This document shows, in pieces, positions 34,320-53,213 of a stretch of DNA of 64,000 bases. Position 1 is the first letter of the stretch; each line of letters begins with the position of its first letter. The notes beneath the pieces were generated by a model. It was not told where the DNA came from. It worked only from the letters and a program-made list of their open reading frames with translations, and did no database searches. The stretch comes from Escherichia coli O127:H6 str. E2348/69. Its GTDB lineage: Bacteria > Pseudomonadota > Gammaproteobacteria > Enterobacterales > Enterobacteriaceae. A program made the position numbers and the translations under genes. The stretch is from the NCBI RefSeq assembly GCF_000026545.1, contig NC_011601.1. One strand, 5' to 3'.

Positions 34320-35204
34320 CTATTGCTGGTCCGATTCTGCCAGGTCATCTTGGTCCTGGCCCAGGAGCGATAATTCCAACAATGCGTATCGGTGCTCAAC
34401 AAAGTTATGAACGTTGTTGGCAACCGCCAGTTTGAACAGTGCCGTGGCGCTGTCCAAATCCCCCAGACTTAGGTAGTACTTACCTAAATAGAAGTTGGTT
34501 TCACTGAGATGCTCAGCGAGCGAGGTGTTATCCGTTGCGTCCGCCTTGAGCCTTTCCATTAACGTTTGTTCGCTAATGTTGCCCAGGTAGAACTCGACAA
34601 TGTTCCATCCCCACTGTTCCTTATCCGATTTTTCGAAGTGCTGTTTCAACACTTCTTTAGCCTGCTTCTCATCGAGCTTCTGCTCGGCGAGATAAAGCCA
34701 CAGACTACGGAAAGGATCATTGGGATCGTCTTGATAAAACGCCAGCAGATCATCTTGCGCTAACTTGTCACGACCGCCGTAATATAATGCGATCCCGCGA
34801 TTCAAGTGCGCGTAGTTGTAAGTTGGATCAAGCTCAAGTACAGAATCAAACGCTTCATAGGCAGCATCAAAATTGCCTGCCTGCGTTAAATATATGCCTA
34901 AGTAATTGAATACTTCAGGCATATCCGGTCGGATTGCCAGCGCTTGCGAAAAATCGTTACGCGCTAATGCCCTCAGACCGAGACTATCATACAACACTCC
35001 GCGCTCATATAAAAGCTGTGCGCGTTCGTCATCGGTTAAAGCCCGACTGGCAAGGATCTGTTCCATACGTGCCAGAATCACTTCCTGCTGTAAAGTCGGT
35101 TGCAATGGTACCGCGAGGACTTCACTTTTACGCCAGGAAGTATTACTGCATCCTGCAAGCGTAAGTGCTGTCGCAACGAAACACCAGCGCAAAAAAGGCT
35201 TCAT
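34320..35204 (-). CDS. nlpI: TPR-repeat outer-membrane lipoprotein (294 aa)
   Basis: Translation [20 protein letters not shown] (lipobox). Confidence 0.92.
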
Positions 35205-35312
35205 TTCCCACTCCCGAAGACCACGGTTGAATGAACGTCCTGTTCCCGGTTGCTAACAAGGCGTCCTGCCCGGTTAAAAGCCCCCCGCCGCAGCGGAGGG
35301 CAAATGGCAACC

Positions 35313-37448
35313 TTACTCGCCCTGTTCAGCAGCCGGAGCTTCCAGTGCTGCAGCAGGTTGAGACTGCTCAGTCGCTTCTTTAATGCTCAGACGGATACGG
35401 CCCTGGCGATCAACTTCCAGCACTTTCACCGGTACTTCCTGACCCATCTGCAGGTAATCGGTCACTTTCTCAACGCGTTTATCAGCGATTTGAGAGATGT
35501 GGACCAGACCTTCTTTACCGCCACCAATGGCAACAAATGCGCCAAAGTCAACGATACGGGTCACTTTACCATTGTAGACGCGGCCCACTTCGATTTCTGC
35601 AGTGATCTCTTCGATACGACGAATCGCGTGTTTCGCTTTCTCGCCGTCGGTCGCTGCGATCTTCACAGTACCGTCATCTTCAATTTCGATGGTGGTGCCG
35701 GTTTCTTCGGTCAGAGCACGGATTACAGAACCGCCTTTACCGATAACATCTTTGATCTTGTCCGGGTTGATCTTGATGGTATGGATACGCGGTGCGAACT
35801 CAGAGATATCGCCACGCGGCGCGTTGATCGCCTGTTCCATTACCCCCAGTATATGCAGACGCGCACCTTTAGCCTGGTTCAGTGCAACCTGCATGATCTC
35901 TTTGGTGATACCTTCAATTTTGATATCCATCTGCAATGCAGAGATACCGTCACGGGAACCCGCAACTTTGAAGTCCATATCGCCCAGGTGATCTTCGTCG
36001 CCCAAAATGTCAGACAGTACAACGTAGTTGTCGCCTTCTTTCACCAGACCCATTGCGATACCCGCAACGGCGGCTTTGATTGGCACACCTGCGTCCATCA
36101 GCGCCAGAGACGCGCCGCACACGGAAGCCATAGAAGAGGAACCGTTGGATTCGGTGATTTCAGACACAACACGTACGGTGTACGGGAATTTGTCCATATC
36201 CGGCATTACTGCCAGCACGCCGCGCTTCGCCAGACGACCGTGACCAATTTCACGACGCTTCGGAGAACCGACCATGCCGGTTTCGCCTACGGAGTACGGA
36301 GGGAAGTTATAGTGGAACAGGAAGGTATCAGTACGTTCGCCCATCAGTTCATCAAGAACCTGCGCGTCACGAGCGGTACCCAGCGTTGCGGTAACCAGCG
36401 CCTGCGTTTCACCACGGGTGAACAGCGCAGAACCGTGAGTACGCGGCAGCACGCCAGTACGCACATCCAGACCACGGATCATATCTTTTTCACGACCGTC
36501 GATACGCGGTTCGCCTGCCAGTACGCGGCTACGAACAACGTTTTTCTCAATAGCGTGCAGAATTTCACCCAGTTCGTTTTCGTCCAGGGTTTCATCTTCA
36601 GCAAGCAGCGTCGCGATAGTTTCAGATTTGATGACATCAACCTGCGCATAACGCTCTTGTTTGTCGGTGATGCGGTAAGCATCGCTCAGACGAGCTTCAG
36701 CCAGTGCAGCAACGCGCGCGTTCAGCGCTTCGTTTACCGGCTCCGGCTGCCAGTCCCAACGCGGTTTACCGGCTTCTTTCACCAGTTCATTGATGTTCTG
36801 AATAACAACCTGCTGTTGTTCATGACCGAACACCACTGCGCCCAGCATTTGGTCTTCGCTCAGCAGTTCAGCTTCAGATTCAACCATCAGCACGGCAGCT
36901 TCTGTACCGGCAACAACCAGGTCCAGTTTGCTCTCTTTCAGTTCGTCCTGAGTCGGGTTCAGTACGTACTGGTCATTGATGTAACCTACACGGGCAGCAC
37001 CATTCGGGCCATTGAACGGAATACCAGACAGAGACAGTGCTGCGGAAGCACCAATCATCGCGACGATATCCGGGTTAACCTGCGGGTTAACAGAAACCAC
37101 GGTGGCGATAACCTGAACTTCGTTGACGAAGCCTTCCGGGAACAGCGGGCGAATCGGGCGGTCAATCAGACGCGCGATCAGGGTTTCGCCTTCGCTTGGG
37201 CGGCCTTCACGACGGAAGAAGCTACCCGGGATACGACCAGCAGCGTAGGTACGCTCCTGATAGTTAACGGTCAGCGGGAAGAAGTCCTGACCTGGTTTGG
37301 CTTTTTTCTGACCAACAACGGTAACAAATACCGCGGTGTCATCCATGCTAACCATAACAGCGGCAGTAGCCTGACGAGCCATCATGCCGGTTTCCAGAGT
37401 CACGGTGTGTTGGCCGTACTGGAATTTACGAACGATCGGATTAAGCAA
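35313..37448 (-). CDS. pnp: Polynucleotide phosphorylase (711 aa) with UUG start codon
   Basis: Translation (M)[20 protein letters not shown]; TTG at 37446-37448 gives the canonical 711-aa product. Confidence 0.92.
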
Positions 37449-37479
37449 TGTAATATCCTTTCTCTTTCTTAGACAGTAC

Positions 37480-37680
37480 CTTACGGTACTGGTGTTAATA
37501 CCCGATCTTCTGCGCATCCTCGCGACTAATGACAACCCTAACCCAGCTCTATGTGGGTAAAGCCTCTCATTAGCCGCGCGAACCTCTGCAACGGAAGATC
37601 ATTCATAGCAACAATACATTAGTTTCCAGTGAATTGCTGCCGTCAGCTTGAAAAAAGGGGCCACTCAGGCCCCCTTTTCT
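37480..37680 (+). ncRNA. sraG: Candidate SraG (PsrO) small RNA in the rpsO-pnp intergenic region
   Basis: Placed from recalled K-12 location (plus strand between pnp and rpsO); ends not determinable by eye; the bidirectional hairpin at 37657-37674 could serve as its terminator. Confidence 0.3.
37650..37680. terminator. rpsO terminator (ggggccactcaggccccc hairpin with A-run and T-run on either side)
   Basis: Perfect GC hairpin just downstream of the rpsO stop. Confidence 0.8.
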
Positions 37681-37694
37681 GAAACTCGCAAGAA

Positions 37695-38060
<366 letters not shown>

Positions 38061-39500: not shown

Positions 39501-39535
39501 AAAATTAATTTCAGGTGGAAGGGCTGTTCACGTTG

Positions 39536-39604
39536 GCCTGATAAGACGCGCCAGCGTCGCATCAGGCAATCCATGCAGGATGCGACATAAACGCCTTATC
39601 CTGC
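39536..39604. repeat. REP/BIME element between infB and rbfA
   Basis: gcctgataagacgcgccagcgtcgcatcaggc plus a second REP-like unit. Confidence 0.75.
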
Positions 39605-39621
39605 ATGGAACCCTAAAAACC

Positions 39622-42294
39622 TTAAGCGATGGTACGTTGGATCTCGATGATTTCGAATACTTCGATCACATCGCCAGTGCGGACATCGTTGTAGTTCTTA
39701 ACGCCGATACCACATTCCATACCGTTACGGACTTCGTTAACGTCATCTTTGAAGCGTCGCAGGGACTCCAGCTCGCCTTCGTAGATAACCACGTTGTCGC
39801 GCAGAACGCGGATCGGGTTGTGACGTTTAACCACACCTTCGGTAACCATACAACCTGCGATGGCACCAAATTTCGGTGATTTGAACACGTCACGAACTTC
39901 CGCCAGACCGATAATCTGCTGTTTCAGTTCCGGAGACAGCATACCGCTCATCGCCGCTTTCACTTCGTCGATCAGGTTATAGATGACGGAGTAGTAACGC
40001 AGATCCAGGCTTTCCGCTTCAATCACTTTACGTGCAGAGGCATCAGCACGTACGTTGAAGCCAACCAGGATGGCGTTGGACGCCGCAGCCAGGGTAGCGT
40101 CGGTTTCGGTGATACCACCTACGCCAGAACCGATGATCTTCACTTTAACTTCGTCAGTAGACAGTTTCAGCAAGGAGTCGGAAATTGCTTCCACAGAACC
40201 CTGTACGTCTGCCTTCAGGACGATATTCACTTCGTGAACTTCGCCTTCGGTCATGTTGGCGAACATGTTCTCGAGTTTAGATTTCTGCTGACGCGCCAGT
40301 TTAACTTCGCGGAATTTACCCTGACGATAGAGTGCAACTTCACGCGCTTTCTTCTCGTCACGTACGACGGTAACTTCATCACCCGCAGCCGGTACGCCGG
40401 ACAGGCCGAGGATTTCCACCGGAATGGACGGACCCGCTTCCAGCACTTCCTGACCCAGTTCGTTACGCATTGCACGAACACGACCGTATTCGAAGCCACA
40501 CAGAACGATATCGCCCTTGTGCAGAGTACCTTCACGTACCAGAACGGTAGCAACCGGACCACGACCTTTATCGAGGAAGGATTCGATAACCGCACCGCTC
40601 GCCATACCTTTACGTACCGCTTTCAGCTCCAGAACTTCCGCCTGCAGCAGGATAGCATCCAGCAGTTCATCAATACCGGTACCCGCTTTTGCAGATACGT
40701 GTACGAACTGGCTTTCGCCGCCCCACTCTTCTGGCAGGATGCCGTACTGGGAGAGTTCGTTCTTAACGCGATCCGGATCGGCTTCTGGTTTATCGATTTT
40801 GTTCACAGCAACCACCACCGGAACACCCGCCGCTTTCGCGTGCTGGATAGCTTCGATGGTCTGCGGCATTACACCGTCGTCTGCAGCAACAACCAGGACT
40901 ACGATGTCCGTTGCCTGCGCACCACGTGCACGCATTGAAGTAAACGCGGCGTGCCCCGGGGTGTCCAAGAAGGTGATCATGCCGTTTTCAGTTTCAACGT
41001 GGTATGCACCAATGTGCTGGGTAATGCCGCCCGCTTCGCCAGAGGCCACTTTCGTTGAACGAATGTAGTCCAGCAGAGAGGTTTTACCGTGGTCAACGTG
41101 ACCCATGATGGTCACAACCGGCGCGCGCGGTTCAGCCGCAGCACCCGTGTCACGGTCGCTCATTACCGCCTCTTCCAGCTCGTTTTCACGACGCAGGATA
41201 ACTTTGTGGCCCATCTCTTCAGCAACCAGCTGTGCGGTTTCCTGATCGATAACCTGGTTGATGGTTGCCATTGCGCCCAGTTTCATCATCGCTTTGATGA
41301 CCTGAGAGCCTTTAACCGCCATCTTGTTCGCCAGTTCGCCAACGGTGATGGTTTCGCCGATCACAACGTCACGGTTAACGGCCTGAGCTGGCTTCTGGAA
41401 GCCTTGCTGCAGCGAAGAGCCTTTACGTTTTCCGCCCTTACCGCCACGTACTGCTGCGCGAGCTTCTTCACGATCAGCTTTTGATTCAGCGTGTTTGTTG
41501 CCTTTCTTCGGACGCGCTGCTTTCGCGTTACGACCACGGCCGCGGCCGCCTTCGACTTCACGATCGCTTTCGTCTTCTGCCTGGCGAGCATGTTGAGAAG
41601 TAGTGACGTGATAATCGCTGGAATCTTCAGTCGGTTCCGCGTTATCAGTCCATTTGTTTTCTTCCGCCATACGACGTGCTTCTTCAGCAACGCGACGTGC
41701 TTCTTCTTCGAGTTTACGACGCGCTTCTTCTTCGGCTTTACGCTTGAGCTCTGCAGCTTCCTGCTCACGGCGGGCTTTTTCAGCCTGGGCGTTTTTAGTC
41801 ATATCGTCTTGTTGATTGCTCACTTTGTCTTTTTCCGCAGCTTCACGTTTCGCTTGTTCAGCAGCTTCACGCTTAGCTTGTTCTGCGGCCTCACGTTCAG
41901 CTTTTTGTTGCGCCTCGCGTTTAGCCGATTCTTCTGCCTCACGACGGGCTTGCTCTTCCGCTTCACGCTGCGCTTGCTCTTCCGCTGCAAGGCGCTCAGC
42001 CTCTTGCGGATCGCGTTTCACAAAGGTGCGTTTCTTGCGGACTTCGATTTGTACCGATTTGCTTTTTCCACCGGTACCAGGAATGTTAAGGGTGCTGCGT
42101 GTTTTACGTTGCAGCGTCAATTTGTCCGGGCCTGAATTTTTCTGATTCAGGTGGTCAATCAAAGTCTGTTTCTCTTGTGCAGACACAGAGTCGTCAGCAG
42201 ACTTCCGGATACCTGCATCAGCAAATTGCTGTACCAGGCGTTCCACGGAGGTCTGTCGCTCTGCGGCCAGCGTTTTAATCGTTACATCTGTCAT
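39622..42294 (-). CDS. infB: Translation initiation factor IF-2 (890 aa)
   Basis: Translation [20 protein letters not shown]... with GTP-binding motifs; repetitive Glu/Ala/Lys/Arg N-terminal region. Confidence 0.95.
41800..41823 (-). other. Internal in-frame initiation codons of infB: GUG at codon 158 (IF2-beta) and AUG at codon 165 (IF2-gamma)
   Basis: Codon positions counted from the translation (V158, M165); function assigned from established knowledge of IF2 isoforms. Confidence 0.5.
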
Positions 42295-42318
42295 GCTGTT
42301 CCTTCCTGCTACAGTTTA

Positions 42319-43806
<1,488 letters not shown>

Positions 43807-44866: not shown

Positions 44867-44901
44867 AGAGCAGAAATCCAGGCTCATCATCAGTTAATTA
44901 A

Positions 44902-46260
<1,359 letters not shown>

Positions 46261-51278: not shown

Positions 51279-53213
51279 TTATTTGTCGCCTAACTGCTCT
51301 GACATGGTGTTACCCGGGTTCGGCGTACGCGGTTCATCAACCGGACGAGGAGCCTTTGGACTACCATTGTCGCCAGAATTGTTAGAAGCGCCTGGTTCTT
51401 CCCAGCCCGCTGGCGGACGTACATCGCGACGTGCCATCAGGTCATCAATCTGCGGTGCGTCGATAGTCTCATATTTCATGAGAGCATCTTTCATCGCATG
51501 CAGAATATCCATATTGTCGGTCAGAAGCTGACGCGCACGATTATAGTTACGCTCAATCAGTGCTTTCACTTCCTGGTCGATGATACGTGCAGTTTCATCG
51601 GACATATGTTTCGCTTTCGCTACGCTACGGCCGAGGAACACTTCACCTTCTTCTTCCGCGTACAGCAGTGGACCCAATTTCTCAGAGAAGCCCCACTGAG
51701 TCACCATGTTACGTGCCAGGTTGGTCGCAACTTTAATATCGTTGGACGCACCGGTAGAAACATGTTCCGGCCCGTAGATGATCTCTTCTGCCAGACGACC
51801 ACCGTACAGCGTAGAAATCTGGCTTTCCAGTTTCTGACGGCTGGCGCTGATTGCGTCGCCCTCAGGCAAGAAGAAAGTCACACCCAGCGCACGACCGCGT
51901 GGGATAATCGTCACTTTGTGCACCGGATCGTGTTCCGGCACCAGGCGACCGATAATTGCGTGACCCGCTTCGTGGTAAGCCGTCGATTCTTTCTGCGCTT
52001 CCGTCATCACCATGGAGCGACGTTCCGCACCCATCATGATTTTGTCTTTCGCTTTCTCGAACTCAACCATCGACACAACGCGTTTGTTGCCACGAGCAGC
52101 GAACAGTGCCGCTTCGTTCACCAGGTTCGCCAGGTCAGCACCGGAGAAACCAGGAGTACCACGGGCAATGATTGCCGCGTCGATATCGGGTGCCAATGGT
52201 ACGCGACGCATGTGAACCTTCAGGATCTGCTCACGACCGCGAACATCTGGCAAGCCAACCACAACCTGACGGTCGAAACGGCCAGGACGCAGCAGCGCTG
52301 GGTCGAGAACGTCCGGACGGTTAGTCGCGGCGATAACGATGATACCTTCGTTACCTTCGAAGCCATCCATCTCAACCAGCATCTGGTTCAGAGTCTGTTC
52401 ACGTTCATCGTGACCACCGCCCAGACCTGCGCCACGCTGGCGGCCTACGGCGTCGATTTCATCGATAAAGATGATGCACGGTGCCGCTTTCTTCGCCTGT
52501 TCGAACATGTCACGAACACGGGATGCACCCACACCGACGAACATTTCTACGAAGTCAGAACCGGAGATAGTAAAGAACGGAACTTTCGCTTCGCCTGCAA
52601 TCGCTTTCGCCAGCAGCGTTTTACCGGTACCCGGAGGACCGACCATCAGGACGCCTTTCGGGATCTTACCGCCGAGTTTCTGGAAGCGGCTCGGCTCGCG
52701 CAGATACTCAACCAGTTCAGCAACTTCTTCTTTTGCTTCGTCGCAGCCCGCAACGTCAGCAAAGGTCGTTTTGATCTGATCTTCAGTCAGCATGCGCGCT
52801 TTGCTCTTACCAAACGACATGGCACCTTTGCCACCGCCGCCCTGCATTTGACGCATGAAGAAGATCCAGACACCAATCAGCAACAACATCGGGAACCAGG
52901 AGATGAAGATAGAAGCCAGCAGGCTTGGTTCTTCAGGCGGTTCACCGACAACCTTGACGTTCTTGGTCAACAGGTTATCCAGTAATTTCGGATCCTGAAC
53001 CGGAATGTAAGTGGTATAACGGTTACTATCTTTCTTGGTAACGTTGATTTCACGTCCGTTGATACGCGCTTCACGAACCTGGTCGTTATTGACCTCTTGT
53101 AGGAAGGTAGAGTAATCCACCTTACGGCCATTAGACTCGCTGGGCCCAAAGCTCTGGAATACTGACATCAGCACAACGGCAATGACCAGCCAGAGTATTA
53201 GGTTTTTCGCCAT
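51279..53213 (-). CDS. ftsH: ATP-dependent zinc metalloprotease FtsH (644 aa)
   Basis: Translation from [22 protein letters not shown] with AAA Walker motifs and HEAGH zinc site. Confidence 0.95.

What the first reader, a model, noticed from the sequence alone, without database searches (positions are those of the whole stretch)
35250..37472. 740-codon stop-free antisense frame across pnp, with similar frames opposite nusA, ftsH and argG
The plus strand opposite pnp is open for 740 codons. Comparable antisense frames sit opposite nusA (489 codons), ftsH (495) and argG (357). This is best explained by codon bias in highly expressed genes depleting the reverse complements of TAA/TAG/TGA, not by real genes. 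It is recorded because the pnp case is unusually long.
Basis: inference. Interest (0 to 1): 0.15.

Follow-up and report, generated by a model that had tools for sequence, protein, structure and literature searches.

The report
Codon-bias shadow frame opposite pnp
The 740-codon open frame on the strand opposite the E. coli pnp gene is real, but it is a by-product of pnp's strongly biased codon choice and shows no sign of being a gene, so it is ordinary.

Summary
The window is E. coli E2348/69. Opposite pnp (35313-37448, minus strand) the plus strand is stop-free for 745 codons, with an ORF of 740 aa at 35250-37472.

The frame is codon-aligned with pnp, so its stops could only come from sense TTA, CTA or TCA codons. 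pnp has 53 Leu and 31 Ser codons and none of those three. Non-preferred Leu/Ser codons that make no antisense stop (CTC, TCG, AGT) are also absent, which points to ordinary selection for preferred codons.

- **Probability:** with ribosomal-protein codon usage from the same genome, an open frame has P about 0.06. A fit on codon bias gives 0.01-0.02.
- **Other genes:** rpoB (1062 codons) and dnaK (686) carry comparable runs.
- **Not conserved:** 1614 of 5426 complete E. coli genomes, including a K-12 derivative, carry CTA at Leu242, which puts a TAG in the frame. In 67 gammaproteobacterial loci the number of stops follows local codon usage (r = 0.97).
- **No constraint:** pnp's synonymous divergence matches infB and deaD. 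The antisense product changes about once per synonymous SNP.
- **No gene signals:** there is no Pfam hit, no promoter-like site and no confident fold.

Translation data could not be checked.

The parts
35250..37472 (+). Antisense ORF of 740 aa (TTG start; stop-free stretch 35235..37469 = 745 codons), codon-aligned with pnp. It is a shadow ORF and not a gene.
35313..37448 (-). pnp CDS (polyribonucleotide nucleotidyltransferase, 711 aa). It has 53 Leu and 31 Ser codons and no TTA, CTA or TCA. Codon adaptation measured without Leu/Ser is 0.72, within the ribosomal-protein range.
36723..36725 (+). Polymorphic codon. Here it is CAG (sense CTG, Leu242). In a K-12 derivative (MT102) and strain M1 it is TAG (sense CTA), which splits the frame into 496 + 248 codons. 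The TAG allele is present in 1614 of 5426 complete E. coli genomes and the CAG allele in 3785.
35280..35306 (+). Mirror image of the pnp terminator hairpin (35280-35301). Its 3' arm holds an SD-like GGAGGG (35295-35300), three bases before the first in-frame ATG (35304). The motif is paired in the predicted hairpin.
37507..37678 (+). SraG sRNA, the only documented antisense transcript at this locus. The published start site is 42 nt upstream of the old 5' end, about 37465 by my mapping. That is at the ORF's stop codon, and the transcript runs away from the ORF.
   Evidence: PMC5029454
42151..43620 (+). Shadow ORF of 489 aa opposite nusA (stop-free 494 codons). nusA has 2 TTA/CTA/TCA codons.
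51498..52985 (+). Shadow ORF of 495 aa opposite ftsH (stop-free 560 codons).
44890..45963 (-). Shadow ORF of 357 aa opposite argG (stop-free 378 codons). argG is on the plus strand at 44917..46260.

Best explanation
The frame is a codon-bias shadow ORF. pnp is highly expressed and under translational selection, so it uses almost only preferred Leu and Ser codons (CTG; TCT, TCC, AGC). In the codon-aligned antisense frame a stop can arise only opposite TTA, CTA or TCA. This allele of pnp has none of those, so the opposite strand is open across the whole gene. It runs on to the first chance stops in the flanks. Nothing selects for the open frame itself. It is most likely not expressed as a protein, and if it is translated at all the product is evolving without constraint. 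Shown here: the frame geometry, the codon counts, the control codons, the polymorphism, the lack of conservation across genera and the lack of synonymous constraint. Inferred: that translational selection is the cause of the bias, and that no protein is made.
For: The frame is codon-aligned and pnp has 0 of 84 Leu+Ser codons as TTA/CTA/TCA. All other long antisense frames in the window are in the same frame, and their host genes have low TTA/CTA/TCA fractions of 0.03-0.07. Control codons that make no antisense stop are equally absent: CTC 0 against 3.9 expected, TCG 0 against 1.9, AGT 0 against 1.5. pnp's codon adaptation is in the ribosomal-protein range. In 11 related Enterobacteriaceae, pnp has 0.29 times the stop-making codons and 0.47 times the control non-preferred codons of infB+nusA+deaD, so it is simply more biased overall. 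Across 67 loci the number of antisense stops in pnp (0 to 56) follows the expectation from neighbouring genes, with r = 0.97 and slope 1.01, and only 4 are fully open. About 30% of complete E. coli genomes carry a TAG in the frame through a synonymous CTG>CTA change. In 9 strains, 19-51 of the 21-54 SNPs within the CDS are at sense third positions. They change 20-51 of 740 antisense residues against 2-4 of 711 PNPase residues. Antisense-frame dN/dS is 1.9-4.0, the same as for the antisense frames of infB, nusA and deaD. pnp dS and its profile along the gene match infB and deaD. There is no Pfam hit and no promoter-like site on the plus strand between 34600 and 37800. Only 18 sporadically called relatives exist among 5.8 billion protein clusters, with names such as 'Spidroin 1' and 'NAD-specific glutamate dehydrogenase'. 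The amino-acid composition lies outside the range of real proteins in the sample, at a distance of 0.263 against a maximum of 0.205, and resembles other antisense translations. The AlphaFold2 single-sequence model has mean pLDDT 29.5 with no residue at or above 50. rpoB and dnaK carry runs of 1062 and 686 codons.
Against: Even under high-expression codon usage, P(no stop) is only 0.01-0.06. In close relatives the stop-making codons are somewhat more depleted than the control codons (0.29 against 0.47). That difference rests on small counts from related lineages. An SD-like GGAGGG lies three bases before an in-frame ATG at 35304. No ribosome-profiling or proteomic data could be inspected, so translation is not excluded. 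Mir et al. (PMC3454372) argue that bacterial genomes hold more long frame -1 ORFs than their model predicts.
Confidence: 0.95

Rival explanations
1. A real overlapping antisense gene: the plus strand encodes a functional protein of about 720-740 aa, translated from its own mRNA and embedded opposite pnp.
For: The frame is long and covers the whole gene. GGAGGG lies three bases before ATG 35304. P is 9e-6 under average codon usage. Antisense overlapping genes have been claimed in E. coli and P. aeruginosa (PMC9927249, PMC7103648, PMC8850804; titles and abstracts as listed).
Against: A stop is present in about 30% of complete E. coli genomes, including a K-12 derivative. The frame is interrupted in nearly all other genera. 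The product evolves at the synonymous rate of pnp and pnp shows no excess synonymous constraint. No promoter-like site was found, and the SD-like motif is buried in the terminator hairpin. There is no domain, no confident fold and the composition is aberrant. The supplementary text held for a Ribo-seq screen for embedded antisense genes in E. coli has no occurrence of 'pnp' or 'polyribonucleotide' and no ORF of this length. Several of those tables are truncated.
Confidence: 0.01
2. Low-level, non-adaptive (pervasive) translation of parts of the frame from spurious antisense transcripts. This would yield unstable products with no selected function, and possibly raw material for de novo gene birth.
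For: An open frame with many in-frame start codons offers no barrier to ribosomes if antisense RNA exists. An SD-like motif precedes an ATG. Nothing at this locus was measured: no expression data for the plus strand were available.
Against: No promoter-like site was found. The known antisense transcript SraG starts at the end of the frame and runs away from it. No translation data were available. Even if true, this does not alter the cause of the open frame.
Confidence: 0.04
3. Direct selection against TTA/CTA/TCA in pnp for a reason other than codon preference or an antisense protein, for example RNA structure or RNase sites connected with pnp autoregulation.
For: Stop-making codons are slightly more depleted than control codons in close relatives, 0.29 against 0.47.
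Against: The synonymous-diversity profile is flat with no constrained block. The CTA allele is common in E. coli. These three are the least preferred Leu/Ser codons and are expected to fall fastest as bias rises. In the reference set they make up 0.029 of Leu codons and 0.038 of Ser codons.
Confidence: 0.01

Closest known systems
Frame -1 'shadow' or antiparallel ORFs caused by codon bias (Merino et al. 1994 and Silke 1997, as cited in PMC3454372; Moshensky & Alexeevski, bioRxiv 10.1101/724807)
   Same: The frame is codon-aligned on the antisense strand, and its stops lie opposite the Leu codons TTA and CTA and the Ser codon TCA. It sits opposite a constantly and highly expressed gene. The preprint names dnaA, dnaK and rpoB as such cases and gives the same formula for P(no stop).
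   Different: Nothing essential differs. pnp is not named in the main text of that preprint and no searched paper describes an antisense gene or ORF in pnp, so this is one more instance.
Antisense ORF of dnaK, annotated as 'NAD-specific glutamate dehydrogenase' (Pfam PF10712)
   Same: It is an antisense frame of more than 1.8 kb across a highly conserved, highly expressed gene, and gene callers sometimes predict it. One database relative of the pnp antisense translation carries the same borrowed name. In E. coli, dnaK has no TTA/CTA/TCA and a 686-codon run. The preprint finds no negative selection on those translations.
   Different: The dnaK case is spread over 282 of 929 genomes and once became a Pfam family. 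The pnp case is open only in Escherichia, Citrobacter and a few relatives, and it has no Pfam family.
Experimentally supported antisense overlapping genes (for example pop opposite ompA in EHEC, 603 bp, PMC7103648; olg1 and olg2 in P. aeruginosa, 957 and 1536 nt, PMC8850804)
   Same: These are long ORFs embedded antisense in an annotated gene.
   Different: Those papers report transcription, ribosome footprints and, for P. aeruginosa, purifying selection (abstracts). Here conservation and purifying selection were tested and not met, and expression is untested.

Membership tests
Codon-bias shadow ORF (frame -1) | The ORF lies in the codon-aligned antisense frame, so its stops correspond to sense TTA/CTA/TCA | tested here: met
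   Frame arithmetic and codon counts. The longest run in that frame is 712 codons across pnp (711 sense codons plus the stop), against 137 and 78 in the other two antisense frames.
Codon-bias shadow ORF (frame -1) | The host gene is strongly codon-biased and lacks those three codons | tested here: met
   0 of 84 Leu+Ser codons. Codon adaptation without Leu/Ser is 0.72, within the ribosomal-protein range.
Codon-bias shadow ORF (frame -1) | The depletion is not specific to stop-making codons | tested here: met
   CTC, TCG and AGT are all 0, against 3.9, 1.9 and 1.5 expected. In relatives the control codons are at 0.47 times the comparators.
Codon-bias shadow ORF (frame -1) | Openness follows codon usage across species and not phylogeny-independent conservation | tested here: met
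   Across 67 loci r = 0.97 and slope = 1.01, with 0 to 56 stops.
Codon-bias shadow ORF (frame -1) | The antisense product evolves without purifying selection | tested here: met
   Antisense dN/dS is 1.9-4.0, as for control antisense frames. Antisense identity to Citrobacter is 75% against 96.6% for PNPase.
Functional antisense overlapping gene | An intact ORF is maintained within the species and its relatives | tested here: not met
   A TAG is present in 1614 of 5426 E. coli genomes, and there are 1-2 stops in Enterobacter, Kluyvera, Siccibacter and Pluralibacter.
Functional antisense overlapping gene | Excess synonymous constraint on the host gene, or purifying selection on the overlapping product | tested here: not met
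   pnp dS and its profile match infB and deaD.
Functional antisense overlapping gene | Own promoter and accessible ribosome-binding site | tested here: inconclusive
   No plus-strand promoter-like site was found. The GGAGGG before ATG 35304 is paired in the terminator-mirror hairpin. Consensus scans are weak evidence either way.
Functional antisense overlapping gene | Evidence of translation (Ribo-seq or mass spectrometry) | not testable with these tools
   No raw data were available. The supplements of three E. coli initiation-profiling preprints were either not held or did not mention pnp. The supplements of the E. coli overlapping-gene screen contain no occurrence of 'pnp' or 'polyribonucleotide'.

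The most novel reading that the evidence does not exclude
In the roughly 70% of E. coli strains with the CTG allele at Leu242, which leaves that site open, occasional antisense transcripts might be translated from ATG 35304. That would give a lineage-restricted and very young polypeptide, a candidate proto-gene riding on pnp's codon bias. This has not been selected for yet, but it could be measured.
Probability: 0.02. Interest if true: 0.45.

Novelty: already known. Interest (0 to 1): 0.04.

Why it matters
It matters mainly as a caution. Such frames can be mistaken for genes, and a few database entries do predict a protein from this one. They also pass 'stop-avoidance' tests that assume one codon usage for the whole genome (here P = 9e-6). 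The locus makes a clean worked example. A control with non-stop-making rare codons, a population polymorphism and cross-species codon-usage tracking together settle the question without experiments.

Tried and rejected
- **Pfam:** scans of all four antisense translations gave no hits.
- **Promoter and terminator scan of 34600-37800:** it found nothing on the plus strand upstream of the ORF.
- **Protein database search:** only 18 sporadic gene-caller products were found, none with a Pfam domain over the matched part of the query (one weak hit, P0017, carries ubiquitin-type domains) or a credible name.
- **AlphaFold2 single sequence:** mean pLDDT was 29.5. This is uninformative on its own because orphan proteins also score low without an alignment. 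No fold search was run for that reason.
- **Published translation evidence:** supplements of two initiation-profiling preprints are not held, and a third has no pnp entry. The supplements of the E. coli antisense overlapping-gene screen contain no 'pnp', no 'polyribonucleotide' and no ORF of 2223 or 2169 bp, but some tables are truncated and list ORFs by coordinate.
- **Literature:** a search for an antisense gene in pnp found nothing relevant.
- **SraG as carrier transcript:** rejected, because it starts at the ORF's stop and runs the other way.
- **Specific avoidance of antisense stops:** the 0.29 against 0.47 depletion in close relatives was considered as a sign of this. It was rejected as weak, because the counts are small, the lineages are related, and these are the least preferred codons.

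Full report
**Identity of the window.** The pnp region is 100% identical to E. coli E2348/69, NZ_CP059840.2. The RefSeq annotation of that record, transferred to window coordinates, validated as intact CDSs on the window sequence. pnp occupies 35313..37448 on the minus strand (711 aa). Nothing is annotated on the opposite strand.

**The observation.** The ORF listing reports 35250..37472 (+), 740 aa, TTG start. The stop-free stretch is 35235..37469, 745 codons.
- 489 aa at 42151..43620 (+), opposite nusA.
- 495 aa at 51498..52985 (+), opposite ftsH.
- 357 aa at 44890..45963 (-), opposite argG, which is on the plus strand here.

infB and deaD carry further runs of 352 and 308 codons.

**Geometry.** The frame is codon-aligned with pnp: sense position 3 pairs with antisense position 1. 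Antisense TAA, TAG and TGA can therefore only lie opposite sense TTA, CTA and TCA. pnp has 53 Leu and 31 Ser codons and none of these three. The other two antisense frames of pnp contain 23 and 36 stops. Every long antisense run in the window is in this same frame, and its length follows the host gene's TTA/CTA/TCA count.

**Is it more than chance?** The answer depends on the null model.
- With the average codon usage of 100 non-ribosomal genes of this genome, 10.8 stops are expected and P(none) is 9e-6.
- I fetched the str-S10-spc-alpha region of the same genome as a high-expression reference of 30 genes. In that set TTA+CTA make up 0.029 of Leu codons and TCA 0.038 of Ser codons. This gives P(none) of about 0.06 for pnp.
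- A binomial fit of the stop-making fraction on codon adaptation, computed without Leu and Ser, gives 3.8-4.4 expected stops and P = 0.012-0.021.

pnp's adaptation value of 0.72 is in the ribosomal-protein range. It is above infB, nusA, deaD and ftsH.

**The internal control.** This is the most telling result. pnp's Leu codons are 47 CTG, 3 CTT and 2 TTG. Its Ser codons are 17 TCT, 6 TCC and 8 AGC. The non-preferred codons CTC, TCG and AGT, which make no antisense stop, are also absent, against 3.9, 1.9 and 1.5 expected. The selection is therefore for preferred codons and not against antisense stops.

**How unusual the length is.** I located rpoB and dnaK by searching with back-translated protein segments. 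Antisense stop-free runs in E. coli are 1062 codons for rpoB, 686 for dnaK, 539 for fusA, 530 for rpoC and 442/412 for tufA/tufB. The pnp frame is one of a class and is not the longest.

**Variation within E. coli.** Nine strains were sampled across the identity range. Their pnp genes differ from the window at 21-54 sites within the CDS, of which 19-51 are at sense third positions. PNPase changes at 2-4 of 711 residues, while the antisense translation changes at 20-51 of 740.

Strains MT102 (a K-12 derivative) and M1 carry CTA instead of CTG at Leu242. This is a TAG at window 36723-36725 and splits the frame into 496 + 248 codons. I searched with allele-specific 35-mers that cannot seed a match unless the SNP base matches. 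They found the CTA allele in 1614 of 5426 complete genomes and the CTG allele in 3785. A silent change that destroys the frame is thus carried by about 30% of sequenced E. coli.

**Variation across species.** Eighty pnp loci from other gammaproteobacteria were fetched.
- The frame is fully open only in E. albertii, Citrobacter werkmanii, Pseudescherichia vulneris and Escherichia sp. ESNIH1.
- It has 1-2 stops in the other close Enterobacteriaceae sampled (two Enterobacter isolates, Kluyvera, Siccibacter, Pluralibacter and an unnamed isolate).
- It has 3 to 56 stops further out. Two GC-rich Aeromonas species have a single stop.

Across 67 loci with comparators, the observed count follows the expectation from infB+nusA+deaD of the same genome, with r = 0.97 and slope 1.01. 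In the 11 closest species pnp has 0.29 times the stop-making codons and 0.47 times the control non-preferred codons of those comparators. It is more biased overall, with at most a weak extra deficit that rests on small and phylogenetically related counts.

**Synonymous constraint.**
- Nei-Gojobori dS of pnp against ten other Enterobacteriaceae is 0.45-0.66. The values are 0.43-0.73 for infB, 0.42-0.73 for deaD, 0.63-1.25 for nusA and 1.1-1.9 for truB.
- Synonymous diversity over 18 orthologs in 40-codon windows ranges from 0.26 to 0.46 along pnp, with no trough. The mean is 0.358, against 0.350 for infB and 0.341 for deaD.
- In the antisense frame dN/dS is 1.9-4.0, the same as for the antisense frames of infB, nusA and deaD.

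No selection preserves the antisense product.

**Gene signals.**
- There is no sigma-70-like site on the plus strand between 34600 and 37800.
- The TTG at 35250 has no obvious Shine-Dalgarno sequence. The first ATG (35304) follows GGAGGG by three bases, but that motif is the 3' arm of the mirror image of the pnp terminator hairpin.
- Rfam finds SraG at 37507..37678 (+). Its revised start site is 42 nt upstream (PMC5029454), which I map to about 37465. That is at the ORF's stop codon, and the transcript runs away from the ORF.
- The translation has no Pfam match.
- Its amino-acid composition mirrors pnp's codon usage (Phe 10.5%, Arg 10.0%, Thr 9.7%; Lys 0.9%, Pro 0.7%). It lies outside the range of real proteins in the sample and resembles other antisense translations.
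- The AlphaFold2 model has no residue with pLDDT of 50 or more.
- Among 5.8 billion protein clusters only 18 relatives exist. They are sporadic predictions with names such as 'Spidroin 1' or 'NAD-specific glutamate dehydrogenase'.

**Literature.** Long frame -1 ORFs caused by codon usage have been described since Merino et al. 1994 and Silke 1997, as cited in PMC3454372. Moshensky and Alexeevski (10.1101/724807) use the same Leu/Ser formula. They name dnaA, dnaK and rpoB as hosts and find no negative selection on the dnaK antisense 'glutamate dehydrogenase' family PF10712. No paper was found that describes an antisense gene in pnp. The supplements of a Ribo-seq screen for embedded antisense genes in E. 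coli contain no 'pnp' or 'polyribonucleotide' entry and no ORF of this length, but some of its tables are truncated.

**Verdict.** This is a known kind of by-product. The frame is polymorphic within the species and absent outside a narrow group with the same codon bias, and no selection can be detected on its product. The only untested point is whether any ribosomes ever read it. That would not change the cause of the open frame.

Noticed in passing
window 34320..35204 (-), nlpI; lowest around 34364..34604: nlpI is weakly codon-biased (11 TTA codons), yet its synonymous divergence is consistently lower than its neighbours'. dS against E. albertii is 0.043, compared with 0.207 for pnp and 0.229 for deaD. 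Synonymous diversity over 18 orthologs is 0.255 against 0.358 for pnp, and it falls to 0.15-0.18 at codons 200-280. One possible cause is an overlapping RNA signal such as the deaD leader or its promoters. This comes from memory and was not checked.
   Followed up: partly
L093 7402..11430 (rpoB) and L094 2501..4417 (dnaK), other E. coli strains: rpoB has a single TTA among 201 Leu+Ser codons and a 1062-codon antisense stop-free run. dnaK has none and a 686-codon run. These are longer than or comparable to the pnp frame.
   Followed up: yes
window 37507..37678 (+): The SraG sRNA lies between rpsO and pnp, antisense to the pnp leader. Its published promoter would lie inside the last codons of the shadow ORF (PMC5029454).
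   Followed up: partly
window 39535..39605 (-): There is an Rfam match to naRNA4 (nucleoid-associated noncoding RNA 4) between infB and rbfA, at 73.8 bits against a gathering score of 59.5.
   Followed up: no
P0012 and P0004: Database relatives of the pnp antisense translation carry propagated names: 'NAD-specific glutamate dehydrogenase' in a nematode assembly and 'Spidroin 1' in Cronobacter. These look like annotation errors built on shadow ORFs.
   Followed up: no
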